The notes under the pieces: model-generated
Databases searched by the model: none
What the model was told of the DNA's origin: nothing
What the model saw: only the letters and a program-made list of their open reading frames with translations
Shown: positions 10,920 through 24,054 of the stretch, piece by piece
Position numbering within the stretch: the first letter of the stretch is position 1
Layout of the letters: every line of letters starts with the position of its first letter
Assembly (NCBI GenBank): GCA_027339965.1
Contig: DAHWNL010000012.1
Span: 1 to 64,000 of the forward strand
Reading direction: 5' to 3'
From: Granulicella sp.
GTDB lineage: Bacteria > Acidobacteriota > Terriglobia > Terriglobales > Acidobacteriaceae
DNA: 64,000 nt
Program-made: the position numbers and the translations under genes

Positions 10920-11025
10920 GGATCGGACCTCGCCGCTGGATTTCGTTCTTATCGAACCATGCTCACGTGATTCCACGCAAGACTTGCTCGTCCGAATATC
11001 CAGTTCCGATCGTGGCGCAAAGGGC

Positions 11026-11925
11026 CTACTCCCGGATATACGCACTCACTGACAATATCAGTAACACAAGTCCGGCGGCGACGACTGTGAAGCCGATCAC
11101 TTTGCTGACCTTGAGCAGCGATCTTTCCGGCTTGCAGGTAAGTTTCTCCCCCAGTCTGCCCTCGGCCCGCAAGCGCTGATACTCCTCAGCGTGCCTCTGT
11201 TGGAACTCTTCTTCCGACTGGACGCCGGTGAAGATCGTCGTATCCATCGGAAAGTTGTCTGGACGCAGATGCCCGTTAATGAAGTGGATTGAAAAGATGA
11301 AGGTGGCGGCGAGCATGGCTTCCTCGCCATGCACGATCTGAACCGCGTTCAGCGCCCAGCCAGGCAGAAACCTGCCGAAGAAGGGCCCGAACCACATCAC
11401 ATAGCCGGAGAATCCAATGATGATCATTCCCCAGAAGACGGCCCAATAGTCAAACTTCTCCCAGTAAGCGTAACGTTCCAGACGGGGCTTGCTGCCCAGT
11501 CCCAGGAACCAGCGGAAGTTTCCGACGATGTCTTTGAGATCCTTCAGGTTTGGAACCATCGAGTCCGGACCCCAAAGCAATCCCTTCTCTTTCTTGACCA
11601 CAACGCGGAACGCGATGTTCGCAATGTGATACAGAAACTCCAAGGTCAGGATCACCGCACAGAACTTGTGAATGAACAAGATGGCTCCAAATCCGCCGAT
11701 GGCCAGCGCAAAGTGCTGCGCCCATGCGTTGCTGCTAAACAGGATCGTGAGGCCGGTCATAGCCAAGCCAAGAAAGGTGGAAAACATGATGACGTGCATC
11801 CATCGCTGTATCGGCGTAAAGCGTACATAGTACCGCTCGGCTTCGGGGTGGGCCTCTGCCGCGCCTCCAGACGAGGCCTGGGGTTCCAACTGCGTGCCTT
11901 CGATCCGAATGGATGGGTCCGTCAT
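11026..11925 (-). CDS. Di-heme cytochrome b membrane subunit (FdnI/HydC-like)
   Basis: [42 protein letters not shown] motifs; ATGA overlap with the upstream multiheme gene; SD AGGAGG. Confidence 0.9.
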
Positions 11926-13247
11926 GATCTTCCTCCTTTTGCAGTCCGACTCTGAACCTTCTCCACCAGGGAGCGGATCAGCCAAAGCACGCTGTGCAGC
12001 ACAAAGAACGTCATCACGCAGGTGATGAGCAAAACCATGAACAAGCGGATGGAGGAGAGGATCGGGAACCTGCGGAAGTTGTGCGGATTCGCATGAGGCT
12101 CATACTTCACAAAGCCCGCATTCGCTCCCGCGTGACAGCGTCCGCAGGTCCTCACCAGATTGGCCCGATTGACTGGAGAGCGCGGGTTGGATGCCGGCAG
12201 GATTCCATGTTCACCGTGACAGTCCGAGCATCTCGCAATGTCGATGTAGCTTCCCAGGGAACTGACCTTGGAGTGGAAGGTATCCCGATAGGTGGTCAAC
12301 TGAGGCTGATGGCAGTTGCCGCAAACCTGCGTCGACTCGGCCATGGTAGGAGCGGAGATCGCGTGCGCGGTGTGACAGTCGGTACAGACCGGAGCCTGTG
12401 GATTGCCTTGCTCCATGGCCTGACCGTGGATGCCCGCCATATACTTCGCAAGAATGCCTGCATGGCAACTTCCGCATGTCTTGGGAATGTTGGTTCGATA
12501 GGTGGGGCTGCGCGGGTCTTTATGGCTCAGAATGTGGTGATCGCCATGGCAACTGCTGCAGTTGGCCGCCACCAGTAGACCCTCCTTGCTGAGCGCAAAT
12601 CCATGGATGGAGTCCACATACTGCGGGTAAACATTGGAGAGATGGTGCTGTTTGGCCATGGACGCATTGCCGTGACACCTGCCGCAGGTTGCGGGAATGT
12701 TCAGGGGATAGGCGGCGGACTTCGGACTGTCCTTGGAAACAATGGCGTGAGCGTCGCCATGGCAGGCCGTACACGGCTGACGGGAGGCATGCTCGTGGAC
12801 GCTGCCGACTAGCGCGCCGGCCTGCTCGGAGTGGCAATTGGCGCAGTTGACCTGCGCCGGGTGATCGGGATGGGGATAGCCATGGATGTCGGCGTGACAA
12901 GCGGTACAGTCCAGGCCGCCATGGACGCTGGCATGGAACAGATTGGCGTCCACGCCCACATTGTGCCCGGCTGCATCCTGCATCGTCGTGTCGCCATGGC
13001 AGGAGAGGCAGTCGGTTTGCGCGCGAAGGGCCGGCCAAGAAAACAGCAGCAGCAGACCGGCACAAGCGACCGCCCAGGATCGCCCGGCAGGCTGGAAGCC
13101 GCGCCAGGCCGGCCGAGTACCCGTCAGGGCGGAAGAACGCCTCAGGGCAAGCTTTGGCCCTCCAACTGGAGACGTGGCTGTCCTGAAGGAGAGCGTGGGA
13201 CCACCCCGGGCTTTTGGCCCGGGGCTTCGTTTGGGGAAGAGAGACAA
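11922..13247 (-). CDS. 11-heme periplasmic cytochrome c with C-terminal TM anchor (start uncertain)
   Basis: Signal-peptide-like AVACAGLLLLFSWPALRA; 11 CxxCH (CLSCH, CTACH, CANCH, CTACH, CGRCH, CSSCH, CGSCH, CTDCH, CGNCH, CSDCH, CGRCH); C-terminal helix with His (FFVLHSVLWLIRS). Confidence 0.9.
   Translation of the reverse strand: MSLFPKRSPGPKARGGPTLSFRTATSPVGGPKLALRRSSALTGTRPAWRGFQPAGRSWAVACAGLLLLFSWPALRAQTDCLSCHGDTTMQDAAGHNVGVDANLFHASVHGGLDCTACHADIHGYPHPDHPAQVNCANCHSEQAGALVGSVHEHASRQPCTACHGDAHAIVSKDSPKSAAYPLNIPATCGRCHGNASMAKQHHLSNVYPQYVDSIHGFALSKEGLLVAANCSSCHGDHHILSHKDPRSPTYRTNIPKTCGSCHAGILAKYMAGIHGQAMEQGNPQAPVCTDCHTAHAISAPTMAESTQVCGNCHQPQLTTYRDTFHSKVSSLGSYIDIARCSDCHGEHGILPASNPRSPVNRANLVRTCGRCHAGANAGFVKYEPHANPHNFRRFPILSSIRLFMVLLITCVMTFFVLHSVLWLIRSLVEKVQSRTAKGGRS
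13203..13225 (-). terminator. GC-rich hairpin between the monoheme cytochromes and the 11-heme gene
   Basis: Minus strand GCCCCGGGC-CAAAA-GCCCGGGGT. Confidence 0.45.
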
Positions 13248-13420
13248 GTCCTGCCGCAAGGGGTAAGGACTTTGAAGATCACGAGGTGGGAGGGTTCTCG
13301 AGGTGTGTTGGTCTTCTAAGTGAAAACGACTCGATGGCTGCTTGCTGCGAGCGGAAACTGGGGCTGCCCCCTCTTTCCGGAGCCTACCCGACGGTGACAT
13401 GACTTGCCTCTTTCAGGTTG

Positions 13421-13735
13421 TCACTTCTGCAACGTTCGAATGTACATCACTGCCGCCTTGATCTGATCAGCCGAGAGCTTGCCTCCATAGGAAGGCATGT
13501 TGCCCTTGCCATTGGTCACGGCAGCGATCAGAGATGCGGTCGATGCCTTCTTCAACTCCGGCGAGTTGAAGGGCATCGCCCTCATGGACTTGCCAGCCAT
13601 GGTCGGCTGGCCGTTGGCACCGTGGCACATCTGGCACTTCGAGCTGTAGATCGCAGCACCCGAGGTCTGTGCAAAGGCTGGTGAAACGGAAATCGCCAGA
13701 ATGGAAGCTGCTGCGAGGGTCAGAGTACGATTCAT
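13421..13735 (-). CDS. Monoheme class I cytochrome c (c6/c553-like)
   Basis: Signal peptide ending AFA; CQMCH; distal Met in NMPSYGGKLS; SD AAGGAG. Confidence 0.93.
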   Translation of the reverse strand: MNRTLTLAAASILAISVSPAFAQTSGAAIYSSKCQMCHGANGQPTMAGKSMRAMPFNSPELKKASTASLIAAVTNGKGNMPSYGGKLSADQIKAAVMYIRTLQK

Positions 13736-13887
13736 GATTGCTCCTTGTGACTCGATTTTGGACTGCTACCTGGGCGACACGAGGAGGCTGCACCCATCTA
13801 GCGTTTCCATACTAACGGATACAATCACGTGGCACATGGTTGTAAGGAGCGAGCTGCTTTTTGAAGTTCGCCATGGGTGGTAACGGG

Positions 13888-14181
13888 CTACTTCAGGGTT
13901 TTGATATACGCGACAACGGCATTCATCTGAGCATCGGTAAGCTTACCGGCGTAAGCAGGCATCCGTGGGCTGATACCCTTCCTGGTGATGGCGATCAGGC
14001 TCGCCGCGGAGGCGCGGGGACTGAACGCGGGAACCTTCATGGCCTTGTTTCCACTTCCATCCGCCATATGGCACATCTGGCACTTGCTCTTGTAGATCGC
14101 GGCGCCGTCCTGGGCCAACATGGGGGTGGCTGCGGTTACGGCGAGGAGGAAGACTGCCAATTTGACTCGATTCGGTTTCAC
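13888..14181 (-). CDS. Monoheme class I cytochrome c, paralog of the adjacent gene
   Basis: GTG start with SD AGGAG; signal peptide; GAAIYKSKCQMCH; RMPAYAGKLT. Confidence 0.92.
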   Translation of the reverse strand: MKPNRVKLAVFLLAVTAATPMLAQDGAAIYKSKCQMCHMADGSGNKAMKVPAFSPRASAASLIAITRKGISPRMPAYAGKLTDAQMNAVVAYIKTLK

Positions 14182-14630
14182 TGGATTCTCCTGTTGCTTC
14201 TGCAAACTGTGGATTGCATCGGTTAGCTTCGTTGATCCCTGCAGCCGTCCAACGTCCAGCCGAGGCCGCACAAGGCCCTCGCCCTGGCCGGTCTTCCGCG
14301 AGATGATCTGCAATGGGCCACTCTACAGACAACAGCCGGGGGGCAGGTAAACCGGAGCTTTGATCCTCTCCCCGGCTGCTGAGCCATACCCCTCGACAAA
14401 ACATCAGGGGCTTCGGACGAAGGTCTGAAGCGCCGGAACCTTCCGCAGGGGCAGGCATGGCAGCCCGGGTACCGGAAGCGGCCGCCGCAAGGCGCTTTGC
14501 TGACCCGCAGAACCTTTTCCACATCGCGGCTTCCCCTCGATCTCGGCGAGCTGGAATCTCCGACCTCCGGAGCTGCTTCGCCGCCTGCGCTGTCTCTGCG
14601 AAGACCATAGTCCTGCGCTGGAGATCAACC

Positions 14631-14646
14631 AGTGATTTCCATCACA
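14631..14646 (-). promoter_or_regulatory. Crp/Fnr box with class II promoter geometry for the cytochrome operon
   Basis: Minus strand TGTGA-TGGAAA-TCACT; -10-like TATGGT at 14609-14604. Confidence 0.75.
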
Positions 14647-14788
14647 AAAGGAAACTTTCAAAGCGTGCTCCCCCAGTTCGCAAGCCGGCGATCGTGTCCT
14701 ACTTCGCAGATCTCAAGACATTTACCGCCAAAGAAGAGAAGGGGGATGATTCGCTGATATTCGAATCAATTGTGCGATGATCATCCAT

Positions 14789-14804
14789 TGTGACGCGGAT
14801 CACA
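14789..14804. promoter_or_regulatory. Perfect Crp-consensus box
   Basis: TGTGA-CGCGGA-TCACA in intergenic DNA. Confidence 0.7.
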
Positions 14805-15028
14805 GCAGCCTGCGCAGGCTTGGCATCTGATGGTGATGTCAGGACGTTGGGGTTGGAAGCACAAGCGGGACAAGCCTCAGAACGCATCGGCCCGACCGGG
14901 CGTCACAGACTGCGGAAGGGAGTTGCCATGTCGGATAAGCTCTCGGAACCGGTGTGGATGCTCTCAAAGCCCCGCAGCTTAGCATCTGCCGCGGCTCGCC
15001 GTTTCCGCAGGAGACGGGGAGCGAGCCT

Positions 15029-15058
15029 CAAAGAAGCCGAATGCAAAGAAGCCGAATG
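15029..15058. repeat. Exact 15-bp tandem duplication
   Basis: CAAAGAAGCCGAATG x2. Confidence 0.8.
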
Positions 15059-15073
15059 GAAGATAGGTTGCGG

Positions 15074-15226
15074 CTATCGCGGAAGCTGGGCGGAACAGAG
15101 CGTCGTCGCCAGGTTGGCGAGGAAAAGAACTGCAAAGGCAACCAGAATCACCACAACGCCGCCTACTGTTAACCGCTCCCAGAGATCTGAGCTCTTGCCC
15201 GCAAACAACTCCTGCTTTGCCGCCAT
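15074..15226 (-). CDS. Unannotated 50-aa single-TM small protein
   Basis: MAAKQELFAGKSSDLWERLTVGGVVVILVAFAVLFLANLATTLCSAQLPR; SD GAGGA; Crp box and TAGAGT -10 immediately upstream. Confidence 0.65.
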   Translation of the reverse strand: MAAKQELFAGKSSDLWERLTVGGVVVILVAFAVLFLANLATTLCSAQLPR

Positions 15227-15272
15227 GGATCTTGTCCTCATGCCCCACTCTAAAGAGTTCGACGGCGATTGC

Positions 15273-15288
15273 AGTGACCCTGGTCACA
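15273..15288 (-). promoter_or_regulatory. Crp/Fnr box between the small protein gene and the crp/fnr gene
   Basis: Minus strand TGTGA-CCAGGG-TCACT; -10-like TAGAGT at 15252-15247. Confidence 0.72.
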
Positions 15289-15391
15289 GGCAGGTTCCTG
15301 ATCGGATCCTGCCGCTGTGGCGCGGGCATCGGGATCAAAACGTCCCAACCATGACTTCGCTTTTGTCTTTCGTCAACCAGGAGGTCAATCG

Positions 15392-16105
15392 ATGAACTAC
15401 CTTCATACCCACATGAACTCCGGCTGCAAAGACTGTTCTGACCGCTCCTTGCGTATTCTGTGCGATCTCTCCGGGCAAGCTCGCTCTGACTTCGAGGCTC
15501 TTGGCATGCAAATGCGGCTGCCCAAGCGCTCCGTCATCTTTCAGGAAGATGATATCTGTGATGCCGCAACCATCATTTGCATGGGCCAGGTGAAGTTGTC
15601 CTGCACCTCGCGTGAAGGCAAGACGCATATTCTCAGAATTGCCGTCCCCGGGGATCTGCTGGGGCTGGGCGCCGCAATCTCCGGGACGCACTATGAGTTG
15701 ACCGCTGAAACCATCGAACCTTGCGTCGTGAAGAAGATTCGACGCAGCGAGTTGTTGGCCTTTCTGGAGAGATACGGGCAAGCGAGCATGCTGGCGGCCA
15801 AGGCGCTCTCCGAGGAGTACAAATCGGCGTTCTTTGATGCCCGACGGCTGGCGCTCTCCGGCTCCACGGCCGGCAGGCTGGCCGGCGTCTTGCTGGACTG
15901 GGGACGGGCTGCCGCCGGACGACACGGAACGGACATGCGCTTCACCATGGCGTTGACGCATGAGGAACTCGCCAATTTGGCCGGAACATCCCGTGAGACG
16001 GTCACTCGCGCTTTGGGAAGGTTTCAGAGAGACGGCTTGATTGAGATTCACGGCTCTTCCTTTCGCGTCCTCGCGCCGCTGGAATTGGAGAACCTGGCCA
16101 CCTAG
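15392..16105 (+). CDS. Crp/Fnr family transcriptional regulator with N-terminal Cys cluster
   Basis: SD GGAGG; CKDC-x8-C; cNMP-fold GQVKLS..PGDLLGL; HTH LTHEELANLAGTSRETVTRAL. Confidence 0.95.
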   Translation: MNYLHTHMNSGCKDCSDRSLRILCDLSGQARSDFEALGMQMRLPKRSVIFQEDDICDAATIICMGQVKLSCTSREGKTHILRIAVPGDLLGLGAAISGTHYELTAETIEPCVVKKIRRSELLAFLERYGQASMLAAKALSEEYKSAFFDARRLALSGSTAGRLAGVLLDWGRAAAGRHGTDMRFTMALTHEELANLAGTSRETVTRALGRFQRDGLIEIHGSSFRVLAPLELENLAT

Positions 16106-16413
16106 GAGTTTACTCAGCGAGCGCCAAAGCAACGATTGAGGCTCTGCAAGGTGTGTCACGGCCGAAGGGATGCGCCTTGGAAGGGGGAGCTTCGGGGACG
16201 CAACGGCGTTCCAAAACAGTCCTCGGCAACCCAGCCATCGGTGCTCAAGCTGGTCTGCGGCGAGTGGATTGGGGGCAGGCGGCGCAGTGGCCGGGGCGGA
16301 GGAGTTGAACGCATTGCGGCCACGGCGTCATCGGCTCGAATAGGATAGCTTTCCAGCCAGGACCATGATGTTCCAGCAACTCTCCAGCCGCGCCTCCGGA
16401 AGATGCATCTTCG

Positions 16414-16429
16414 TGTGACAAACGTCACC
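16414..16429 (+). promoter_or_regulatory. Crp/Fnr box upstream of usp
   Basis: TGTGA-CAAACG-TCACC. Confidence 0.65.
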
Positions 16430-16597
16430 GTCATTTCTCTTCAAACAGAATTCAATCAAGCAAAACATCGCAGGGCGGAAAGCCTTCGAGTGGCCGTGCG
16501 TGAGGCGAACTCCCATTGCTCCCTGCGTTCCACCGGGCAAGGGCCGGTGGCGATGCATCAGCGACGCGTAGAAGTCGGCTGAGGGAGGCTTGGCCTT

Positions 16598-17572
16598 ATG
16601 CAGGATTGTTCCAGCAAGACGCCATCCCCCTTCCGCAGAGTGCTGTTGGCCACAAATCTCGGCGAGGGCTCCGAAGAGGTTTTGCATGCAGCTCTGCAAC
16701 TCTGCCGGAGGAGCGGCGCTAGCCTCCGGATCCTGCATGTCTCCAAGCCATATCCACCTCTCAGCCAGGACAAGGGAGAGTCAGCCAGGTTCATCGCACT
16801 GCCCCGCTCATTGGACCAGGAGGCGTCCGAACTCCTTCGCGAGGCCAGAGAACGCGCTCTCTCGCTCAGTCTCCACTGCATCACGCGGCAGGAGTCGGGG
16901 GTTCCAGCGGAGAGGATTCTGAAGGCATTGGAGGCCGAGGAGACTGACCTGCTCATCCTTGGAACGGGGGAGCCTCACGGCTCCATTCGCAATGCCTTTG
17001 GACCAACCGCCGAGAAGGTGATGCTGCAAGCCGCCTGCCCCATCATGACGGTAGGGCGGGTAGCGGCCGAGACCTTTCAGCCCAGCCCCTCCGATGGACC
17101 CGTACTCTTTGCCACCGACTTTCACTCATGCACTCGGCAGGCGATCCACCAGGCCATCCGCTATAGCAGGAGCATCCAACAGAAGCTTCACTGTGCGCAC
17201 GTGCTGCCTCGCGCAATGCAGTCCATTCATGGAGACAACACCCTGGCCGAACTTCTGACCAATGCGCTCAAACACCTGGTAACCACCAACAACACATCAG
17301 ACCAGGACACAATCTGCGCGGTGATCTATGGAAGCGAAATCTCCAATGCCATCGTAAATTACGCCCGGCAAATCCACGCGGGCATCATCTTTCTCGGAGT
17401 ACGCAGGAACAGCATTCTTTCTTCACCGGATCGTCTCCCCATTGCTTTCCGAATCATTGTCGAATCACCCTGCCCGGTTGTGACCATCCTCTGCGGCGAA
17501 GAGGCCGAGCCGGAGAACATGACTGATTTGGGCGCCTGCAGCTTCAAGGCGCCACCCTCGCCTCTGCAGTAA
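16598..17572 (+). CDS. Universal stress protein, tandem Usp domains
   Basis: RRVLLATN..LRILHV..DLLILGT..FGPTAEKVMLQAACPIMTV and VLFATDF..IIFLGVR..ESPCPVVTI; SD GGAGG. Confidence 0.92.
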   Translation: MQDCSSKTPSPFRRVLLATNLGEGSEEVLHAALQLCRRSGASLRILHVSKPYPPLSQDKGESARFIALPRSLDQEASELLREARERALSLSLHCITRQESGVPAERILKALEAEETDLLILGTGEPHGSIRNAFGPTAEKVMLQAACPIMTVGRVAAETFQPSPSDGPVLFATDFHSCTRQAIHQAIRYSRSIQQKLHCAHVLPRAMQSIHGDNTLAELLTNALKHLVTTNNTSDQDTICAVIYGSEISNAIVNYARQIHAGIIFLGVRRNSILSSPDRLPIAFRIIVESPCPVVTILCGEEAEPENMTDLGACSFKAPPSPLQ

Positions 17573-17664
17573 GACACCGCAGAAGCTCATGGGCCTCCGC
17601 CTCCGGCCTGCTGCCGAAGGCGAAGCAGTGCCCACCCGAACCCGGCCGCTGTGGAAAGCCTGTT

Positions 17665-18807
17665 CTAGTGAACGGGCGGCTCATAGTGACAGAACGGATC
17701 GCTCGCCAGCGCATCCCCCGTTGCCGCAAAGGCTCGCGCGCGAGAACCGCCGCATAGAGCGCGATACTCACAGCGCCCGCACTTTCCCTTGAACTGATTG
17801 GGATCGTGCAACGCCCGGAAGATCGGCGCGTTGCGGTAAACATCCTGGAGCTGGTCGGTGCGTATGTTGCCGACCGCCAGCGGGAGGAAGCCGGCCGGGC
17901 AGATGTCGCCCTGATTCGAGATAAAGACAATTCCGTGACCATCGCGGATGCCAAAACCGCGATAGACGGGAGTGCGCTCGATCTCGCCGGCCGCCATGCC
18001 CGCTGCGCGCATGCGGCTGAGTGCCACGCGGCGATAAGACGGCGCTTCCGTAGTGGCCATGGCAAAGGGGGCGACCTTGGACTGGTCGTAGATCCAGTTC
18101 ATCAGTTCCTCTCCACGCTCGCTGGAGATCGGCTGCAGGACCTTGCCGCGCCCGACCTCGATCAAAAAAAACAGGCTCCAGCGCATCACCGGAAAGGTCT
18201 TGAGCAACTCATAAACAGCGGGAACGTCGTCCACCGTCTCTTCGGCGACAAGCGTGTTCACCTGAATGGGAACACCCAGGCCGGCTGCCGCCTTGGCGGC
18301 GGCGATGGTCCAGCCGAAGCAGCCCTCCACGCCGCGTACTGCCTCATGGCGAGCTGCTGTTGAGCCATCCAGGCTGAGGCCGAAGCTGTCAATCCCATGC
18401 TCCCTGAGCCGGGAGAGTACCTCCACCGTAAGGTCCGTCGTCGCGCTGGGCGTAATGGATGCGTTGATGCCCAACGAACGCGCCTCGTCGATCAAATCGA
18501 AGAGATCCGCACGCCGCAGCGGGTCGCCGCCGGTAAAGACCAGGTGCGGCGTGGGGTTCTTGAAAGCCGCGATCTGGCGCAACAGGTTTTTCCCCTCCTC
18601 AAAGGTGAGCTCATTGGGGTGCGGCGTGGAGACAGCCTCGGCGCGGCAGTGACGGCAGGCGAGCCCACAGGCTTGCGTCATCTCCCAATACACCAGCATC
18701 GGTTGCTCTGCGTAGCTGTGATTGGAGGAGTGCTGCGGGTGAGTGTGCGGATGCACGTGGCGGGCCGGCATGGAGGAGGGGATCGAACGGATATCCATGG
18801 TTGACAT
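17665..18807 (-). CDS. Radical SAM/SPASM protein, AhbD/NirJ-related (TIGR04053-like)
   Basis: WEMTQACGLACRHCRA (CxxxCxxC), TGGDPL, C-terminal KCGRCEYRALCGGSRARA..DPFC; directly downstream of hemG. Confidence 0.9.
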   Translation of the reverse strand: MSTMDIRSIPSSMPARHVHPHTHPQHSSNHSYAEQPMLVYWEMTQACGLACRHCRAEAVSTPHPNELTFEEGKNLLRQIAAFKNPTPHLVFTGGDPLRRADLFDLIDEARSLGINASITPSATTDLTVEVLSRLREHGIDSFGLSLDGSTAARHEAVRGVEGCFGWTIAAAKAAAGLGVPIQVNTLVAEETVDDVPAVYELLKTFPVMRWSLFFLIEVGRGKVLQPISSERGEELMNWIYDQSKVAPFAMATTEAPSYRRVALSRMRAAGMAAGEIERTPVYRGFGIRDGHGIVFISNQGDICPAGFLPLAVGNIRTDQLQDVYRNAPIFRALHDPNQFKGKCGRCEYRALCGGSRARAFAATGDALASDPFCHYEPPVH

Positions 18808-18818
18808 AAATGGTTCTC

Positions 18819-20330
18819 CTAAGAGCTAGAAGGGGCTTCAAGCGCAACCGGCGACGGATCGTGGGCTGTCTGAGGGCCGGCCCGATGCGGGAGCGGCCCA
18901 CCATGATGAATCTTCGCAGCGGTCTCGGCCCCGCGCTGGATGCATTCCGGTATCCCGGAGCCGTGATAGGCTGCACCCGCCAGGTAGAGACCCGGATGGT
19001 TTGCAATCTCGCGCTCGATCTCCTGAACCAGTACGCCATGGCCGATATTGTATTGGGGGACGGACTTTCTCCAACGGTAGGCACGGGCGAGGATGGGAGT
19101 TGCAGTGATGCCCAGGATCTCTCTCAACTCCTGGCGTGCCACCTCAATCAGGGCATCCTCATCCTGTTCGGCCAGATCTTCTGCAAAGACGCCGCCAATG
19201 AAGACCCGCAGAAGCACGCTGTCGGCCGGCGCGCGATGCCCGAACTTGTTGGAAGACCAGGAGCAGGCATTGATCCTTCGCCCCTCGCTGCGGGGCACAA
19301 TGAAGCCAAATCCACTCAGCGCGCAGGTGACCTCGCTGCGGCGGAACGCCAGCGAAACGGTCGCGGTGGAGACGTAGTGAATCTTGCGCAGATTGTCGGA
19401 CAGCACCGGATCCAGCCGTTCCAGGATCTCCGCGGTGACGTAGGCGGGCGTGGCGAAGACGACGTTCTCCGCCGCCACCGAAGCGCCGCTCGCCAGGGTG
19501 ACTGTGTAACCTCCGCCGCGGGCTGGATCACCCTTCCGAATCAACGAATGCACGGGGCAGTTCAGCCTGATCCGCTCCGAAGCAAGACGAGAGACCAGGG
19601 CGTCGGGAAGTTGCTGGACACCGCCGCGGAGCGTGGTAAACATCGAGGTGTGGCCTGCCGGAGCCGGCTTCGCAGCTGACGCTCCCGCTGAGGCAGAGGC
19701 TTGCGCCTTCTTGCGTCTCATCATGCCCAGCACCAGGCTGCGATGCTTTGCCTCCAGCTCCACAAACATGGGAAAGGTGCTGCGCAGACTCAGGCTGTCA
19801 GGATCTCCAGAGTGAATGCCGGCCATCAACGGACCCGCAATCTTCTCCAACATCTCGGAACCCAGGCGGCGGCGGACAAAACTACCCAGACTCTCATCTG
19901 GATCCGATGTATTCCTGCCAACAAAGATCTCCAGCCCCAAGCGCAGCTTGCCCGGCCAGGAGATCAGCCGAGAGCGAAGAACCGGAAGCATCATGGTCGG
20001 AGCCATCAGCATCATGCCTTCCGGCATGGGGTGCAGCCGTCCCTTGTTCAACACATAGGTGGAGGCCGTGGAGCTTTGGTTGGACCCGATCAGTTGATCG
20101 CCCAGGCCCAGCTCCAGGCAAAGGTCCAGCGCAGCCCGCTTCTGGGTCAGAAAGGAGTCCGGCCCGCCTTCCACCAGGAAGCCATCGCCGGCATGGGTGG
20201 TGATCTTCCCTCCCAGATGGCCGGAGCTCTCCAGCAGGAGATAGTCGGCTTCCTTGCCTTCCAGCTTCTGGAGGAAATATGCGGTCGAAAGACCTGCGAT
20301 TCCCGCACCGATGACGACTGTCCTGTGCAT
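18819..20330 (-). CDS. hemG: HemY-type flavin-dependent protoporphyrinogen/coproporphyrinogen oxidase
   Basis: VVIGAGIAGLSTA FAD motif, EGGPDSFL, GFGFIVP, PQYNIGH, GSGIPECI. Confidence 0.94.
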   Translation of the reverse strand: MHRTVVIGAGIAGLSTAYFLQKLEGKEADYLLLESSGHLGGKITTHAGDGFLVEGGPDSFLTQKRAALDLCLELGLGDQLIGSNQSSTASTYVLNKGRLHPMPEGMMLMAPTMMLPVLRSRLISWPGKLRLGLEIFVGRNTSDPDESLGSFVRRRLGSEMLEKIAGPLMAGIHSGDPDSLSLRSTFPMFVELEAKHRSLVLGMMRRKKAQASASAGASAAKPAPAGHTSMFTTLRGGVQQLPDALVSRLASERIRLNCPVHSLIRKGDPARGGGYTVTLASGASVAAENVVFATPAYVTAEILERLDPVLSDNLRKIHYVSTATVSLAFRRSEVTCALSGFGFIVPRSEGRRINACSWSSNKFGHRAPADSVLLRVFIGGVFAEDLAEQDEDALIEVARQELREILGITATPILARAYRWRKSVPQYNIGHGVLVQEIEREIANHPGLYLAGAAYHGSGIPECIQRGAETAAKIHHGGPLPHRAGPQTAHDPSPVALEAPSSS

Positions 20331-20356
20331 CACGATGTCACGCTTTCGCTAAGCAT
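20330..20356 (-). other. 8-codon upstream mini-ORF (MLSESVTS*) coupled to hemG by a TGATG overlap
   Basis: Minus strand AGGAGGAACC-ATG CTT AGC GAA AGC GTG ACA TCG TGA-TG CAC. Confidence 0.6.
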
Positions 20357-20453
20357 GGTTCCTCCTGGGAGAGGGGCGGCTGGGTTAGAAGCTCCTCCAG
20401 CGCCCCGGAGTTCGTCATCGCCTTTAAGGTTATCGGGGAAAGCCCGGGGTCAC

Positions 20454-20469
20454 GGTGACTCCAATCACA
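20454..20469 (-). promoter_or_regulatory. Crp/Fnr box with class II geometry for the hemG-radical SAM operon
   Basis: Minus strand TGTGA-TTGGAG-TCACC; -10-like TAACCT at 20432-20427. Confidence 0.75.
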
Positions 20470-20741
20470 AAGCCTCCATCCGCGCTCCCTGACCGCGCCA
20501 GAGGATAGCGCCACCCTCTTCATCCCGAGAGAAGCTTGCCTTCAGGATCGCAATAACGGCAGGTTACCGTTTGACTCCGTCCGGCGGCCACAACCTCTCG
20601 TCATTGCCCCCAGTCGACCGTGAGCTGGTTGACGGAAGCGGTCAAGTCAGCCTGCTTGTGCGTCAACCCAGCCACCGCGCTGAATCAGATGGTCAAGGCG
20701 TAACGCCCCCGGGCGATCCATGAGAGGTAATTCTCCTTTTC

Positions 20742-22262
20742 CTAAGCCAGCATGCTCCCTGTCTTCAGAAAGCGGCTGTGCCAGGAGAGAGACTCGTCAA
20801 GAAGGTGTGGAGTATGTTTGCCGGGTGCAAGTTTCTCCGCACGGTGGAAGTAGTCGCGTAGCGCCGGACGAAAGTCGGGATGTGCGCAGTTCTCAATGAT
20901 GACTTTTGCGCGCTGCTTGGGTGAGAGTCCCCGCAGATCGGCCAACCCCTGATCCGTCACCATCACCTGGAGGTCATGCTCGGTGTGATCGACATGGGAG
21001 ACCATGGGAACGATGGTGGAGATCTTGCCCTTGGCCGCAGTCGATGGCGCCATCATGAAGGTAATATAGCCATTGCGAGTAAAGTCGCCCGAACCTCCGA
21101 TACCGTTTTGCATGCTCGATCCCATGATGTGGGTGGAGTTTACGTTCCCATAGATGTCCCCCTCAATCATGGCGTTCATTGTGATCACGCCCAGGCGACG
21201 GATGATCTCCGGACTGTTCGAGACCTCCTGCTGACGGATCACAATCTGATTGCGATAACTGCCGATCTTCGGCATGATCTTGGCAATCCCCTCCGGGCTC
21301 AACGAAAACGCCGTCGCCGACAGGCTGCTCAGCTTGCCCACATCCAGCAGGTGCACCATGCCATCCTGAATGACCTCCGTGTAGGAGGTCATCCCTTCAA
21401 AAGGAGCCTCTTCCAAGCCAAAGAGAACGGCATTGGCGATGTTGCCTACGCCAGACTGTAAAGGGAAGAGATTGGAAGGCAGATGGCCCTTCTTCACCTC
21501 CCACTCAAGAAAGTTGATGATGTGGCCGGCAATCTTGCGTGAAGCATGGTCCGGTTCCTTGAAGGGGCTGGCCCGGTCTCCAATGTCCGTATGGACCACC
21601 GCAATCACCTTCTGCAAAGGAACCTTGAGATACGGAGTGCCAATTCTCTGATTGGACTTGAGCAAGGGCAGCGGAATACGGTTGGGCGGCAGGCCAAGCC
21701 CATAGAAGAGGTCGTGCATGCCCTCCAGCTCCAGCGGCTGGCCGGAGTTGACCTCCAGGATCACCTTGTCAGCGCGCTCGATCCAGGTAGTGTTATTGCC
21801 CACCGAAGAGCTAGGGACCACGCGTCCATCCTCTAGGATGGCGGTCACCTCAATGATGGCAAGATCCATCTTGCCAAAAAAGCCGTAATCCACCTGCTGC
21901 GCCTGATGGCTCAGATGGATATCCATGTAACTGGCATCGCCGTTGTTGATCCGCTTGCGTAGCTCGGGATCACCCTGGTAAGGCGCGCGCATCTCCACGC
22001 CGTTGGCTTTGCCCAGCGCTCCGTCCAGCTCGGGACCGGTGGAAGCTCCGGTGAGCACGCTCACCCGGAAGCTCTCACCCCTCTCATGGTCAGCCTCGAT
22101 GCGCTTGGCCAGCGCCTTTGGAACTGCCTTGGGGTAGCCAGATCCCGTAAAGCCGCTCATGCCGATCAAGGATCCCGGCTGGATCATCGCCGCTGCTTCG
22201 TCGGCGCTCATCACACGCTGCGCGAAAGACGAATTCAAAACTCTGGAACTGGTTGAAGCCAT
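20742..22262 (-). CDS. Succinyl-CoA:acetate CoA-transferase / acetyl-CoA hydrolase family (AarC/Ach1-like)
   Basis: MSGFTGSGYPKAVP, LTGASTG, PLQSGVGNIANAV, YTEVIQD, NGIGGSGDF, IVPMVSHVDHTEHD, DQGLADLRGLSP. Confidence 0.93.
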   Translation of the reverse strand: MASTSSRVLNSSFAQRVMSADEAAAMIQPGSLIGMSGFTGSGYPKAVPKALAKRIEADHERGESFRVSVLTGASTGPELDGALGKANGVEMRAPYQGDPELRKRINNGDASYMDIHLSHQAQQVDYGFFGKMDLAIIEVTAILEDGRVVPSSSVGNNTTWIERADKVILEVNSGQPLELEGMHDLFYGLGLPPNRIPLPLLKSNQRIGTPYLKVPLQKVIAVVHTDIGDRASPFKEPDHASRKIAGHIINFLEWEVKKGHLPSNLFPLQSGVGNIANAVLFGLEEAPFEGMTSYTEVIQDGMVHLLDVGKLSSLSATAFSLSPEGIAKIMPKIGSYRNQIVIRQQEVSNSPEIIRRLGVITMNAMIEGDIYGNVNSTHIMGSSMQNGIGGSGDFTRNGYITFMMAPSTAAKGKISTIVPMVSHVDHTEHDLQVMVTDQGLADLRGLSPKQRAKVIIENCAHPDFRPALRDYFHRAEKLAPGKHTPHLLDESLSWHSRFLKTGSMLA

Positions 22263-22445
22263 CGAAACCTTCACCTTCCTCTTCCTGAATCTTTTACAAC
22301 TGCGGTACAGCTTCAGGCAAGTAAGAAGGCTGTCCAGATCCTGATTGTCTCCAGCCCGCCGCAGAAAGGGATCCTCCCGGGGATCTCCTCCCGGGAGCAA
22401 TCTGAACACTCGTCTTCAAGAATAGCGGGCCAGGACCGAACGGCG

Positions 22446-23765
22446 TCACCGCGCGGAAGCCAGACGCTCCTCCGAGCCTGTTCCGCGAGTATACGAGTCC
22501 GGCAGCTTCCTGTACTCGTGCCCGACATAGACCTGACGAGGCCGAGCGATCTTCTGCTCCGGATCGTTGATCAGCTCCTGCCACTGCGCCAGCCAACCTA
22601 CCGCGCGCGGAATCGCAAACAGGACCGTGAACATCTTGGGCTCAAACCCCATCGCCTCATAGATGATGCCCGAGTAGTAATCGACGTTGGGATACAGCTT
22701 GCGCGAGACAAAGTAATCGTCCGTCAGCGCAATCCTCTCCAACTCCATCGCCAGATCGATCTTCTTGTTGCGGCCGGTGATCTCAAAGACCTCATCGGCG
22801 GTCTTCTTGATCATCTTGGCCCGAGGATCGTAGTTCTTGTACACCCGATGCCCAAAGCCCATCAGCTTCTGGTGTCCTTCTTTCACACCCTTGATGAACT
22901 CCGGAATGTTCTCCTTGCTGCCGATCTCATCCAACATCTTCAGCACAGCCTCATTGGCGCCGCCGTGCAGCGGACCCGCCAGACCCGCCGTTGCCGCAGC
23001 CGCGCTCAGGAAGGGATCCGCCTCCGAGCTGCCTACCGAGCGCATGGCGTTGGTCGAGCAGTTCTGCTCATGATCGATGTGCAGGATGAACAGAACATCC
23101 AGCGCGCGGGCCAGCACCGGATGCTTCAAGTGCTGCAGCGGGCTGCGGTCCCAAAGCATGTGCATGAAGTTCTCCGCATAACCCAGTTGGGGCTCCGGCG
23201 CAATGTAATCCAGACCCTTGCTGTGACGGTAGCCATAGGCTGCGATGATCGGAACCTTGCCCACCATCCGGTGGATGCTCTCCATCTGGCGGTCATGATT
23301 GCGCACCTCTTTGGATTCCGGATAGAACGTGGAAAGCGCCGCCATGGTGCTCACCAGCATGCCCATCGGATGCGCATCGTAGCGGAACCCTTCCATGAAC
23401 TTCTTGATGTTTTCGAAGATGCCCATGTGAATCCGAATCGCCGCCAGCCACTCCGCTTCCTGTTCCGGCGTTGGCAGCTCTCCGTGAATGACCAGATATG
23501 CCACCTGCGGAAAAGTGCAGTGCTCCGCCAGATCCGCGATGTCATATCCGCGATAGCGCAGAATGCCTTTGTCGCCGTCGATGAAGGTAATCTTGCTCTG
23601 GCACGATGCGGTGTTGGTAAAAGCCGGATCATAAGACATCAAGCCGAAGTCCTCGGCGTCCACCTTGATCTTGCGCAGATCCATCGCACGAATCGTTCCA
23701 CGCGTTACCGGAAACGTGTATTGCTTTTCAGTGCGGTTATCTATCACTGTTACCGTGTTATCCAT
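22446..23765 (-). CDS. gltA: Citrate synthase
   Basis: ITFIDGDKGILRYRGY, LHIDHEQNCST, GPLHGGANE, MGFGHRVYKNYDPRA, YPNVDYYSG. Confidence 0.97.
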   Translation of the reverse strand: MDNTVTVIDNRTEKQYTFPVTRGTIRAMDLRKIKVDAEDFGLMSYDPAFTNTASCQSKITFIDGDKGILRYRGYDIADLAEHCTFPQVAYLVIHGELPTPEQEAEWLAAIRIHMGIFENIKKFMEGFRYDAHPMGMLVSTMAALSTFYPESKEVRNHDRQMESIHRMVGKVPIIAAYGYRHSKGLDYIAPEPQLGYAENFMHMLWDRSPLQHLKHPVLARALDVLFILHIDHEQNCSTNAMRSVGSSEADPFLSAAAATAGLAGPLHGGANEAVLKMLDEIGSKENIPEFIKGVKEGHQKLMGFGHRVYKNYDPRAKMIKKTADEVFEITGRNKKIDLAMELERIALTDDYFVSRKLYPNVDYYSGIIYEAMGFEPKMFTVLFAIPRAVGWLAQWQELINDPEQKIARPRQVYVGHEYRKLPDSYTRGTGSEERLASAR

Positions 23766-23817
23766 AAAATACTTCCTTTCGATTGCTCAACTATCGTCTT
23801 CCCCGAGTAGCGTCGAT

Positions 23818-23833
23818 TGTGACACGCATCACA
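23818..23833 (-). promoter_or_regulatory. Perfect Crp/Fnr box upstream of gltA
   Basis: (T)TGTGA-CACGCA-TCACA(A); -10-like GATAGT at 23795-23790 on the minus strand. Confidence 0.8.
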
Positions 23834-24054
23834 ACCGTTGAAATCATCCGGGTGCTCTTTCCACGCTCGCACTCAGCCGAAATCATGGTGGCTCTCTTCG
23901 CACACCTTCCGTGCTCTCTTATTCCATCGAGATATCCCTTGCGCTCTTGATCCAGCTTGAGGTCCACTCGCATCCTTACCCATGAAATTCCATATTTCCT
24001 GGCCCCATTCTGATAGAGACGAGGCCGTCACGCTCCAAGCGCAATCTTCGACTC

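What the first reader, a model, noticed from the sequence alone, without database searches (positions are those of the whole stretch)
14604..23833. Self-contained Crp/Fnr regulon readable from sequence: six boxes, four with class II geometry
Seen: GTGA-N6-TCAC boxes at 14631, 14789, 15273, 16414, 20454 and 23818, all intergenic and two of them perfect TGTGA-N6-TCACA. For four, a -10-like hexamer starts 28.5-30.5 bp from the box centre toward the target gene: TATGGT (cytochromes), TAGAGT (small protein), TAACCT (hemG) and GATAGT (gltA). Established: class II Crp/Fnr sites centre near -41.5, and the R-E-x-x-x-R recognition helix (here RETVTR) specifies TGTGA rather than the FNR TTGAT. Inference: the local regulator co-activates electron transfer, heme synthesis, Usp and acetate/TCA genes.
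Basis: partly seen in the sequence, partly recalled or inferred. Interest (0 to 1): 0.82.

Follow-up and report, generated by a model that had tools for sequence, protein, structure and literature searches.

The report
Cysteine-sensor Crp/Fnr regulon in peat Granulicella
The six palindromes are real, conserved docking sites of a Crp/Fnr-type gene switch in a peat-soil Granulicella, placed to turn on cytochrome, haem, stress-protein and citric-acid-cycle genes; it is a familiar kind of switch in a little-studied phylum, and it reaches well beyond this locus.

Summary
The window holds 9 GTGA-N6-TCAC matches against 0.71 expected.

Genome-wide, a PWM at the score of the weakest box finds 17 intergenic sites against 0.65 in shuffles. 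Six of them lie in this 9.2-kb span.

The boxes sit at orthologous places in related Granulicella genomes, with invariant half-sites and varying spacers: 20/20, 24/24, 15/15 and 8/8 for four positions. Perfect boxes number 4-14 in the 10 genomes with the regulator and 0-2 in the 30 counted without it.

All six boxes have a conserved -10-like hexamer starting 28.5-30.5 bp from the centre, not just four. The same peak appears across the regulon.

The regulator has the CRP-type R-E-T-V-T-R helix, lacks CRP's cAMP contacts, and has four invariant cysteines.

The regulon is not self-contained. Eleven more intergenic sites precede porin-cytochrome-like operons, sucA, nuoA/PFOR, ccmF and others. Two paralogues carry the same helix type (R-E-T-x-x-R).

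Activation and the low-oxygen or redox signal are inferred. This scan noted the same kind of switch in other Acidobacteria. Verdict: a new member of a known kind.

The parts
14631..14646 (.). Box 1, AGTGATTTCCATCACA. It faces leftward to the cytochrome operon.
   Evidence: Present in all 20 related loci stacked. PWM score 20.2 bits.
14604..14609 (-). -10-like TATGGT, starting 29.5 bp from the centre of box 1.
   Evidence: Anchored stack consensus CTAtggT at a fixed offset in 20 loci; one locus is shifted by 1 bp.
9483..14182 (-). Electron-transfer operon downstream of box 1: two mono-haem cytochromes c (13888-14182, 13421-13735), a multihaem cytochrome (11922-13400), a cytochrome b561-type membrane protein (11026-11985) and a NapC/NirT-like multihaem cytochrome (9483-11045).
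   Evidence: Pfam and NCBIfam matches. That they form one operon is inferred from strand and spacing.
14789..14804 (.). Box 2, a perfect TGTGACGCGGATCACA. Its target is unresolved.
   Evidence: Both boxes 1 and 2 are present in 18 of 19 close loci that cover the region. Their spacing is 153-158 bp.
14826..14831 (+). -10-like TCTGAT (TTnnAT in relatives), 29.5 bp to the right of the centre of box 2.
   Evidence: The conserved block TTGGCAT..AT.G.GAT lies to the right of the box in 19 loci. It is a weak hexamer without A at position 2.
15273..15288 (.). Box 3, AGTGACCCTGGTCACA, between the divergent small-protein gene and the regulator gene.
   Evidence: Present in all 20 loci whose regulator is at least 82% identical.
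15247..15252 (-). -10-like TAGAGT, starting 28.5 bp from the centre of box 3.
   Evidence: TA.AGT is conserved at a fixed offset in 20 loci.
15074..15241 (-). Small hydrophobic protein gene of 55 codons, or 50 from the second ATG, which follows a GAGGA.
   Evidence: ORF. No family at the default threshold; at E up to 5 only a weak PsbX match (E 0.37). Recognisable in relatives by tblastn.
15392..16105 (+). Crp/Fnr-family regulator of 237 aa. It has the R201-E-T-V-T-R206 helix and invariant C12, C15, C24 and C63.
   Evidence: PF00027, PF13545 and PF00325; alignments A1 and A2; AlphaFold2 model.
16414..16429 (.). Box 4, TGTGACAAACGTCACC, between the regulator gene and usp.
   Evidence: Present in all 24 loci with usp downstream of the regulator, including 8 loci with a regulator of only 60-69% identity.
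16451..16456 (+). -10-like TTCAAT, starting 29.5 bp from the centre of box 4.
   Evidence: TTSAAT in close relatives. TACATT, TACAGT, TAAGAT (three loci), TACCTT and TATAGT at the same offset in distant ones.
16598..17572 (+). Tandem universal stress protein.
   Evidence: PF00582 in two stretches.
17665..20333 (-). HemY-type oxidase (18819-20333) followed by an AhbD-like radical SAM/SPASM protein (17665-18807).
   Evidence: TIGR00562 at 326 bits and TIGR04053 at 457 bits.
20454..20469 (.). Box 5, GGTGACTCCAATCACA, upstream of hemY.
   Evidence: Present in all 15 loci that cover the place.
20427..20432 (-). -10-like TAACCT, starting 29.5 bp from the centre of box 5.
   Evidence: TAaCCT is conserved in 15 loci.
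20742..23765 (-). Citrate synthase (22446-23765) followed by succinyl-CoA:acetate CoA-transferase (20742-22409; the true start is probably near 22264).
   Evidence: NCBIfam NF004126 and TIGR03458. Co-transcription is inferred.
23818..23833 (.). Box 6, a perfect TGTGACACGCATCACA, with its centre 60 nt upstream of the gltA ATG.
   Evidence: Perfect box in all 8 genomes that hold this gltA, 58-63 nt from the ATG, with differing spacers.
23790..23795 (-). -10-like GATAGT, starting 30.5 bp from the centre of box 6.
   Evidence: GATAGT or GATTGT in relatives, and TATAGT in G009.

Best explanation
The boxes are operators of a dimeric Crp/Fnr-family transcription factor of a peat/soil Granulicella (Acidobacteriaceae).

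DNA recognition (shown at sequence level). The recognition helix carries the CRP-type residues R-E-x-x-x-R. The site is the 16-bp palindrome cTGTGAY-N4-RTCACAg.

Promoter geometry (anatomy shown, activation inferred). At the six local promoters, and at six or more promoters elsewhere, the site centre lies about 41.5 bp upstream of the predicted start. A -10-like hexamer starts 28.5-30.5 bp from the centre and no -35 hexamer is present. The protein most likely acts as a class II activator that contacts RNA polymerase in place of a -35 element.

Signal (inferred). The protein lacks CRP's cAMP-contacting residues. It has four invariant cysteines, three in an N-terminal C-x2-C-x8-C extension and one in the beta-roll. 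The signal is therefore most likely oxygen or redox state, read through a cysteine-bound cofactor such as an Fe-S cluster.

Output (inferred from the targets).
- c-type and multihaem cytochromes, including two operons that look like porin-cytochrome conduits.
- Cytochrome c maturation (ccmF).
- Haem synthesis, including an oxygen-independent radical-SAM step.
- A second citrate synthase with a succinyl-CoA:acetate CoA-transferase.
- nuoA/PFOR, Usp proteins and a small membrane protein.

The regulon is genome-wide, with its densest cluster around the regulator gene.
For: 1. Enrichment. The window has 9 core matches against 0.71 expected. At or above the weakest box's PWM score the genome has 17 intergenic sites against 0.65 +/- 0.91 (largest 3) in 20 shuffles. 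At 18.5 bits the figures are 12 against 0.15.

2. Footprinting. Half-sites are invariant and spacers vary at orthologous places.
- Box 3: 20 of 20 close loci.
- Boxes 1 and 2 together: 18 of 19.
- Box 4: 24 of 24.
- Box 5: 15 of 15.
- The gltA box: 8 of 8 genomes, including G007 and G009, where gltA is not beside the regulator.

3. Co-occurrence. Perfect TGTGAY-N4-RTCACA counts are 4-14 in the 10 genomes with an orthologue of at least 57% identity. They are 0-2 in 15 same-genus and 15 other-family genomes without one. G036 was left out. The reversed control pattern gives 0-2.

4. Geometry. Conserved hexamers sit at fixed offsets of 28.5-30.5 bp for all six boxes. In 40 oriented flanks of 20 sites, 9 of 17 TAnnnT occurrences start at 28.5-30.5 bp, and each of the nine points to the adjacent gene. 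No promoter with both sigma-70 hexamers was found in 13800-16700, against 0.9 expected.

5. Regulator. It has the PF00027 and PF13545 domains. R201, E202, T203 and R206 are invariant in 23 sequences, as are C12, C15, C24 and C63. CRP's E72, R82 and S83 align to a gap, Y and E.

6. Coherent targets. A box precedes the homologue of the 311-aa multihaem cytochrome in 4 of 4 relatives that hold one, and precedes nuoA in 3 of 5.
Against: - No transcription start, binding or expression data exist. The -41.5 position rests on -10-like hexamers, and two of them (TCTGAT, TTCAAT) lack the usual A at position 2.
- Three paralogues share the helix type R-E-T-x-x-R, so which protein occupies which site is unknown. 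Every genome with the orthologue also has paralogues.
- The cysteine pattern differs from FNR's. The cysteine nearest FNR C122 (C111) is not conserved. The N-terminal 20 residues are modelled with pLDDT below 50. No cofactor is shown.
- Some outlying sites are poorly conserved: ccsA-hemA in 1 of 5 relatives, sucA strongly in 2 of 5, and the weak aconitase match in 0 of 5.
- The terminal oxidases, which are classical FNR targets, have no box reaching the 16.5-bit threshold within 6 kb; only two sub-threshold matches (13.5 and 11.3 bits) occur there.
- Related genomes are not independent, so the conservation and co-occurrence counts overstate the support.
- The PWM was built from relatives' boxes that were selected by the core pattern.
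Confidence: 0.75

Rival explanations
1. The boxes are real, but they are served mainly or jointly by the two paralogous Crp/Fnr proteins with the same helix type (on contigs C32 and C17). The local gene would then be only one of several readers, or would govern only its immediate neighbours.
For: - Three of the eight Crp/Fnr paralogues in the genome carry R-E-T-x-x-R and an N-terminal cysteine motif.
- The C17-type paralogue lies beside sucA in G001, G007 and G012 and about 2.3 kb from it in G015, and in two of these genomes (G001, G012) a strong box precedes sucA.
- The C32 paralogue lies about 2.2 kb from a site between a histidine kinase gene and a response regulator gene.
Against: - Boxes 3 and 4 flank the local gene wherever its orthologue occurs.
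- Four same-genus genomes whose best match is only 40-42% identical (G003, G014, G016, G021) hold only 1-2 perfect boxes, against 4-14 where the orthologue is present.
Confidence: 0.3
2. The protein binds these boxes but is a repressor or dual regulator, or it answers a signal other than oxygen or redox state, such as nitric oxide, a cyclic nucleotide, haem or CO.
For: - Crp/Fnr proteins with TGTGA-type sites sense many different signals. Named examples such as HcpR and CooA are recalled, not checked here. Passages of a review describe CRP proteins in many phyla that read TGTGA-type sites in response to cyclic nucleotides (PMC10187061).
- Box 3 has no conserved promoter element on the regulator's side, so its effect on the regulator gene itself is open.
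- The terminal oxidases are not in the regulon.
Against: - A site centred near -41.5 without a -35 element is the classical activator layout. None of the six boxes overlaps its predicted -10 or start.
- The cAMP contacts are missing.
- The targets are cytochromes, haem synthesis, an oxygen-independent radical SAM enzyme and PFOR, which fit oxygen limitation.
Confidence: 0.2
3. The palindromes are chance matches or copies of a repeated or mobile element without regulatory meaning.
For: Short palindromes do arise by chance. Eight PWM hits lie in coding DNA against 3.8 expected. The aconitase match at 2275 is not conserved.
Against: - Enrichment is 13-fold in the window and 26-fold in intergenic DNA.
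- Spacers and flanks differ between copies, so the boxes are not copies of one element.
- Positions are conserved across genomes.
- Box counts track the presence of the regulator.
Confidence: 0.02

Closest known systems
E. coli CRP (CAP) and class II CRP-dependent promoters
   Same: - The R-E-T-V-x-R recognition helix. Passages of review PMC10187061 say that R180, E181 and R185 contact the TGTGA motif.
- The site TGTGA-N6-TCACA.
- A site centre about 41.5 bp from the predicted start, with no -35 element.
   Different: - Only 22% identity.
- The cAMP contacts E72, R82 and S83 are not kept.
- There is an extra N-terminal cysteine-bearing extension.
- The targets are respiratory genes, not catabolic ones.
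E. coli / Aliivibrio fischeri FNR (N-terminal [4Fe-4S] oxygen sensor)
   Same: - An N-terminal cysteine-rich extension. Alignment to PDB 5cvr and to NCBIfam NF008365 begins at residue 11-12.
- Class II activation.
- The theme of respiratory remodelling.
- The gene lies next to a tandem usp gene, as fnr lies next to uspE in E. coli K-12.
   Different: - The helix is R-E-T-V-T-R, not V-E-T-I-S-R.
- The site is TGTGA-N6-TCACA, not TTGAT-N4-ATCAA. The FNR site is recalled.
- Cysteine spacing is C-x2-C-x8-C.
- C111, the cysteine nearest FNR C122, is not conserved, while C63 in the beta-roll is invariant.
- The terminal oxidases have no box reaching the 16.5-bit threshold.
Bacillus/Paenibacillus-type Fnr
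   Same: An oxygen-sensing Fe-S Crp/Fnr protein that reads TGTGA-N6-TCACA, according to passages of bioRxiv 10.1101/2020.01.03.894683. The pairing of an 'FNR-like sensor' with a 'CRP-like site' therefore has precedent.
   Different: In B. subtilis Fnr the cluster ligands are C-terminal (C227, C230, C235 plus D141; same passages). Here the C-terminus has no conserved cysteine and the conserved cysteines are N-terminal.
Shewanella oneidensis CRP at omcA/mtrC
   Same: A CRP-type regulator that directly activates the genes of outer-membrane multihaem cytochromes used in extracellular electron transfer (passages of PMC4417206).
   Different: It depends on cAMP. Its sites are centred at -61.5 and -60.5, a class I-like layout. 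It belongs to a different phylum.
Mycobacterium tuberculosis Crp (Rv3676) and Corynebacterium glutamicum GlxR
   Same: These are the best sequence matches among solved structures (E 2e-13 and 4e-12), with an S-R-E-T-V helix. That GlxR controls gltA and other citric-acid-cycle genes is recalled, not checked here.
   Different: They bind cAMP and have no N-terminal cysteine motif.
Earlier notes of this scan on other Acidobacteria (e1-4263454, e1-3025465, e1-3218567)
   Same: They describe a cysteine-bearing CRP-helix regulator with TGTGA..TCACA boxes before cytochrome, haem and anaerobic-metabolism genes.
   Different: They concern other genomes. No look-alike of this regulator was found by sequence among earlier findings. 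They are unchecked AI notes, not independent evidence.

Membership tests
Crp/Fnr superfamily | An N-terminal cNMP-binding-like beta-roll followed by a long dimerisation helix. | tested here: met
   PF00027, E 1.5e-16, residues 41-128. The AlphaFold2 model has beta strands at 39-117 and a helix at 129-155, with mean pLDDT 82.
Crp/Fnr superfamily | A C-terminal Crp-type winged helix-turn-helix. | tested here: met
   PF13545, E 5.4e-19, and PF00325, E 8.8e-11.
CRP proper (cAMP receptor protein) | The cAMP-contacting residues, E72, R82 and S83 in E. coli numbering. | tested here: not met
   In alignment A1 they align to a gap, Y101 and E102.
CRP proper (cAMP receptor protein) | An R-E-x-x-x-R recognition helix and a TGTGA-N6-TCACA site. 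| tested here: met
   R201, E202 and R206 are invariant in 23 sequences. The PWM consensus is cTGTGAY-N4-RTCACAg.
FNR (E. coli type) | Four cluster ligands: C20, C23, C29 and C122. | tested here: inconclusive
   Three N-terminal cysteines (C12, C15, C24) are invariant, but their spacing differs from FNR's. C111, which lies 3 columns from C122, is replaced by A or T in 13 of 23 sequences. C63 is invariant. No cofactor can be shown with these tools.
FNR (E. coli type) | An E-x-x-S-R helix reading TTGAT-N4-ATCAA. | tested here: not met
   The helix is R-E-T-V-T-R where E. coli FNR has V-E-T-I-S-R. The enriched site is of the TGTGA type.
Bacillus-type Fnr | A C-terminal cysteine cluster (C227, C230, C235). 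| tested here: not met
   No conserved cysteine lies beyond column 180 of alignment A2. The defining residues are taken from passages read.
Class II activator-dependent promoter | A site centred near -41.5 relative to the transcription start. | not testable with these tools
   No RNA run holding the stretch was listed. As a proxy, -10-like hexamers start 28.5-30.5 bp from the centre at all six boxes and are conserved at fixed offsets. Across the regulon, 9 of 17 TAnnnT occurrences start there.
Class II activator-dependent promoter | A weak or absent -35 hexamer. | tested here: met
   No promoter with both hexamers was found in 13800-16700, against 0.9 expected.

The most novel reading that the evidence does not exclude
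This cysteine-sensor Crp/Fnr protein would be the low-oxygen master switch that lets peat Granulicella, a genus known as aerobic heterotrophs, turn on a complete kit for respiring without oxygen by extracellular electron transfer. The kit would comprise two MtrAB-like porin-cytochrome conduits, periplasmic and membrane cytochromes, cytochrome c maturation, oxygen-independent haem synthesis, and a rewired citric acid cycle with its own citrate synthase and a CoA-transferase. The signal would be read by a four-cysteine site (three N-terminal cysteines plus one in the beta-roll) that differs from both known FNR cluster architectures.
Probability: 0.3. Interest if true: 0.7.

Novelty: new member of a known kind. 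Interest (0 to 1): 0.45.

Why it matters
Acidobacteria dominate peat and acid soils, yet almost nothing is known about how they regulate respiration.

A 2026 preprint (10.64898/2026.05.27.727921) reports that porin-multihaem-cytochrome clusters of peat Acidobacteriota are transcribed at depth. Its main text never mentions Crp or FNR; I read passages and section 9.

The regulon described here supplies a candidate regulator, a defined DNA site and a list of promoters. It recurs in a cultured isolate, Granulicella sp. L46, so the question 'what turns these cytochromes on?' can be tested with ordinary genetics.

The regulon also marks a second, conditionally expressed citrate synthase with a CoA-transferase as part of the same response.

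Tried and rejected
- RNA evidence. No RNA holder was listed for 14000-23999. The three metatranscriptome runs listed hold next to none of its words. I did not lay reads.
- Rfam. There was no match at gathering thresholds over the whole window, and none at E up to 1 over 14000-24600.
- ORFs overlapping boxes 1 and 2 (13943-14608, 14223-14522, 14404-14661, 14457-14780, 14699-14887, 14790-15395, 14830-14982, 14954-15172). None has a Pfam family, and the DNA there is poorly conserved.
- The match at 2275 before aconitase scores 12.9 bits, and none of 5 relatives has a box there. I rejected it as a site.
- The match at 22051 lies inside the CoA-transferase gene, scores 5.5 bits, and is conserved as coding sequence. 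I rejected it.
- The match at 11087 scores 15.8 bits and lies at the 3' end of the cytochrome b gene, about 48 nt before the NapC/NirT-like gene. Its spacer is conserved too, so coding constraint cannot be separated from function. I left it open.
- Box 4 as a terminator. The scanner flags its palindrome followed by a T-rich tail. However, the stem has only 5 pairs, it lies 310 nt after the stop codon, and relatives keep the half-sites but not the tail. I rejected this reading.
- Sigma-54 reading of the TTGGCAT to the right of box 2. By eye, the GG-N10-GC register does not fit in the window sequence. I rejected it.
- Pfam for the 901-aa partner of the 311-aa cytochrome. There was no family even at E up to 5. 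The only lead is a language-model match to MtrB/PioB-like clusters.
- Alignment of the N-terminal domain alone against solved structures did not bring up FNR.
- Literature. Searches found no paper on a Crp/Fnr regulon in Acidobacteria, and one search returned 0 papers.

Full report
**Observation**

The six boxes are in the sequence exactly as described. They lie at 14631-14646, 14789-14804, 15273-15288, 16414-16429, 20454-20469 and 23818-23833. The second and sixth are perfect TGTGA-N6-TCACA.

The core GTGA-N6-TCAC occurs 9 times in the 64-kb window. One hundred dinucleotide-preserving shuffles gave a mean of 0.71 and a maximum of 3.

They start 29.5, 28.5, 29.5 and 30.5 bp from the box centres.

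**The genes**

| Box | Position relative to genes | Genes served |
|---|---|---|
| Box 1 | Left-facing | Minus-strand run: two mono-haem cytochromes c, a 492-aa multihaem cytochrome, a cytochrome b561-type membrane protein and a NapC/NirT-like multihaem cytochrome (9483-14182) |
| Box 3 | Between divergent genes | A 55-codon hydrophobic ORF and a 237-aa Crp/Fnr-family regulator (15392-16105) |
| Box 4 | Before usp | A tandem Usp protein |
| Box 5 | Before hemY | A HemY-type protoporphyrinogen/coproporphyrinogen oxidase, then a radical SAM/SPASM protein of family TIGR04053, whose next-best match is the haem b synthase AhbD |
| Box 6 | Before gltA | A citrate synthase, then a succinyl-CoA:acetate CoA-transferase |

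Relatives with named records place the organism in Granulicella (Acidobacteriaceae). Most come from bog and peat samples.

**Is it more than chance genome-wide?**

The window's genome has 3.82 Mb in 88 contigs and holds 81 core matches. Twenty-seven lie in the 16% of the genome that my own crude gene calls leave uncovered.

I built an 18-nt weight matrix from 125 boxes of related loci. I set the threshold at the score of the weakest of the six boxes, 16.5 bits.

| Threshold | Intergenic hits | Shuffled intergenic DNA |
|---|---|---|
| 16.5 bits | 17 | 0.65 +/- 0.91, largest 3 (20 shuffles) |
| 18.5 bits | 12 | 0.15 |
| 20.5 bits | 5 | 0 |

At 16.5 bits the genome gives 25 hits in all. Eight are in coding DNA, against 3.8 in 5 shuffles. 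Six of the 17 intergenic hits lie in the 9.2-kb span of the finding.

Two cautions apply. The gene calls are approximate. The matrix comes from boxes chosen by the core pattern in relatives.

**Conservation**

I examined 29 related loci fetched with the regulator protein, plus the window. The boxes recur at orthologous places. The half-sites stay fixed and the six spacer bases change.

| Position | Loci with a box / loci covering the place |
|---|---|
| Box 3 | 20 of 20 with a regulator at least 82% identical; 2 of 10 with one 58-69% identical |
| Boxes 1 and 2 together | 18 of 19 close loci; the remaining locus has box 1 only |
| Box 4 | 24 of 24 with usp downstream of the regulator, 8 of them with a 60-69% identical regulator |
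| Box 5 | 15 of 15 |

Boxes 1 and 2 lie 153-158 bp apart.

This citrate synthase is an accessory gene. At E up to 1e-100 it is found in 8 of 41 related genomes searched. The window's genome has a second citrate synthase on contig C87 that carries no box. All 8 genomes with the accessory gene have a perfect box 58-63 nt before its ATG. That includes G007 and G009, where the gene is not beside the regulator.

**Co-occurrence**

Perfect TGTGAY-N4-RTCACA boxes were counted in the same 41 genomes.

| Genomes | Perfect boxes per genome |
|---|---|
| 10 with an orthologue of the regulator at least 57% identical | 4-14 (8, 7, 7, 12, 6, 14, 4, 7, 9, 12) |
| 15 same-genus genomes without one | 0-2 |
| 15 genomes of the neighbouring family | 0-2 |

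G036 is flagged unpublished and is left out. The control pattern, read backwards, gives 0-2 everywhere. The genomes are kin, so this is not a statistical test, but the separation is complete.

**Geometry**

I stacked the related loci on the box centre without gaps. This shows short conserved blocks at fixed offsets on the side of the target gene.

| Box | Conserved hexamer | Start, bp from box centre |
|---|---|---|
| 1 | TAtggT | 29.5 |
| 3 | TA.AGT | 28.5 |
| 5 | TAaCCT | 29.5 |
| 6 | GATnGT (TATAGT in G009) | 30.5 |
| 4 | TTSAAT | 29.5 |
| 2 | TTnnAT, rightward | 29.5 |

For box 4, the more distant orthologues have TACATT, TACAGT, TAAGAT (three loci), TACCTT and TATAGT at exactly the same offset. 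All six boxes therefore fit the class II layout, not four.

I then looked at 20 sites across the genome. These were the 17 intergenic hits plus three hits that my gene calls placed just inside ORF edges and that I added by hand because a gene starts just beyond them. Their 40 oriented flanks hold 17 TAnnnT occurrences. Nine of these start at 28.5-30.5 bp, and no other offset has more than one. All nine point to the adjacent gene:
- boxes 1, 3 and 5;
- nuoA;
- ccsA-hemA (one of the three hand-added sites);
- ccmF;
- a response regulator gene;
- the two multihaem cytochrome operons.

No promoter with both sigma-70 hexamers is found in 13800-16700. The transcription starts themselves could not be checked.

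**The regulator**

It has the cNMP-binding-like and Crp-type HTH domains. I aligned it with E. coli CRP and FNR, using sequences taken from the K-12 record.
- Its helix reads S-R-E-T-V-T-R. CRP has S-R-E-T-V-G-R and FNR has T-V-E-T-I-S-R.
- Passages of a review state that R180, E181 and R185 of CRP contact the TGTGA motif (PMC10187061).
- CRP's cAMP contacts E72, R82 and S83 are not kept.

In 23 orthologues and one paralogue, C12, C15, C24 and C63 are invariant and C71 nearly so. C111, the cysteine nearest FNR C122, is replaced in 13 of the 23 sequences.

The AlphaFold2 model has mean pLDDT 82. It shows the expected fold but leaves residues 1-20 undefined.

The best sequence matches among solved structures are M. 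tuberculosis Crp and C. glutamicum GlxR. A. fischeri FNR aligns from residue 12.

**The wider regulon**

Sites elsewhere in the genome precede:
- two paralogous operons of a 311-aa multihaem cytochrome and a 901-aa protein. The latter has no Pfam family, and a language-model search likens it to MtrB/PioB porins (a lead only);
- sucA;
- the divergent PFOR and nuoA genes;
- a second tandem usp;
- a histidine kinase and response regulator pair near a paralogous regulator;
- an ArsR-type gene;
- a multihaem cytochrome with an Fe-S protein;
- a gene pair ending in a Pyr_redox/4Fe-4S oxidoreductase (contig C70);
- ccmF.

Two further intergenic hits have no clear target: one lies 466 nt before a base-excision DNA glycosylase gene (C19) and one between convergent genes (C34). 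Three hits that my gene calls place just inside ORF edges precede the second tandem usp listed above, ccmE and ccsA-hemA.

In five relatives, a box precedes the cytochrome homologue in 4 of the 4 that hold one, nuoA in 3 of 5, and ccsA-hemA in 1 of 5. sucA has a strong box in 2 of 5 and aconitase in 0 of 5.

In G001 and G012 (and apparently G008, by its weak match to the window's 492-aa cytochrome), the gene served by box 1 is this 311-aa cytochrome.

The two haem-copper oxidase loci and cydA have no box reaching the 16.5-bit threshold within 6 kb; two sub-threshold matches (13.5 and 11.3 bits) occur.

Two further paralogues in the genome share the helix type R-E-T-x-x-R and an N-terminal cysteine motif. 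One type lies beside sucA in G001, G007 and G012 and about 2.3 kb from it in G015.

**Reading**

Shown:
- a strongly enriched, conserved palindrome;
- its fixed distance to conserved -10-like elements;
- its co-occurrence with a Crp/Fnr protein whose helix matches it.

Inferred:
- that this protein binds the boxes;
- that it activates from about -41.5;
- that the four cysteines hold a redox- or oxygen-sensitive cofactor;
- that the response serves oxygen-limited, cytochrome-based respiration.

**Comparison with what is known**

An oxygen-sensing Fe-S Fnr that reads TGTGA-N6-TCACA is known in Bacillus and Paenibacillus, with C-terminal ligands (passages of 10.1101/2020.01.03.894683).

A CRP that activates extracellular-electron-transfer cytochromes is known in Shewanella, from sites at -61.5 and -60.5 (passages of PMC4417206).

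My searches of the held library found no described Crp/Fnr regulon in Acidobacteria. The peat preprint on their cytochrome clusters does not mention Crp or FNR in its main text.

Earlier notes of this scan describe the same kind of switch in other Acidobacteria. None concerns a close relative of this protein.

This is therefore a new member of a known kind. It is well supported as a regulon, and it is of moderate interest because it makes the regulation of peat acidobacterial cytochromes testable.

Noticed in passing
window 20330-20425, minus strand: The hemY leader is conserved far beyond a promoter. It holds a hairpin whose distal stem changes by compensatory substitutions between genomes, then UCUCCCAGGAG, which could pair with the Shine-Dalgarno sequence. 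An 8-codon upstream ORF follows (ATG at 20356), and its stop overlaps the hemY start (TGATG or TAATG in relatives). There is no Rfam match. In locus L064 the leader is absent.
   Followed up: partly
window 14755-14783 and 23804-23812: A conserved inverted repeat of the form CGnTnAnCG-N11-CGnATAtCG lies 13.5-41.5 bp to the left of the centre of box 2 in all 19 loci stacked. A similar 9-mer (CGATAATCG in relatives, CGCTACTCG here) lies at the same offset between the gltA box and its -10. It may be the site of a second regulator. The half-site recalls GATAAT-type iron boxes, but I did not test this.
   Followed up: partly
window 22446-23765; G000 contig C87:40930-41979: The genome has two citrate synthases. 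The boxed one is an accessory gene found at E up to 1e-100 in only 8 of 41 related genomes, and each of those 8 also holds an orthologue of the regulator. The other citrate synthase has no box.
   Followed up: yes
window 17665-20333: A HemY-type oxidase gene is followed directly by an AhbD-like radical SAM/SPASM gene (TIGR04053). This pairing suggests an oxygen-independent last step of the coproporphyrin-dependent haem pathway.
   Followed up: no
window 15392-17572; E. coli K-12 locus L116: The Crp/Fnr gene is followed on the same strand by a tandem usp gene in 24 Granulicella loci. E. coli K-12 has the same pairing, fnr followed by uspE.
   Followed up: partly
window 14183-14600: About 415 nt separate the start predicted for box 1 from the first cytochrome gene. 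No recognisable gene lies there. In G019 a third cytochrome c gene fills the gap. In G001, G012 and G008 a multihaem cytochrome starts about 100 nt from the box.
   Followed up: partly
window 11086-11101: TGTGAAGCCGATCACT lies at the 3' end of the cytochrome b gene, about 48 nt before the NapC/NirT-like cytochrome gene. It is conserved with its spacer in at least 9 relatives. It is either an internal promoter site or a product of coding constraint.
   Followed up: partly
G000 contigs C44:28047-31926 and C80:11021-14873: Two paralogous operons each encode a 311-aa multihaem cytochrome and a 901-aa protein without a Pfam family. Each operon is preceded by a high-scoring box with TAGGCT starting 30.5 bp from its centre. 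A language-model search likens the large protein to MtrB/PioB porins.
   Followed up: partly
window 23834-24558: An intergenic stretch of about 720 nt lies between box 6 and the probable start of class II fumarase. It has no gene call and no Rfam match.
   Followed up: no
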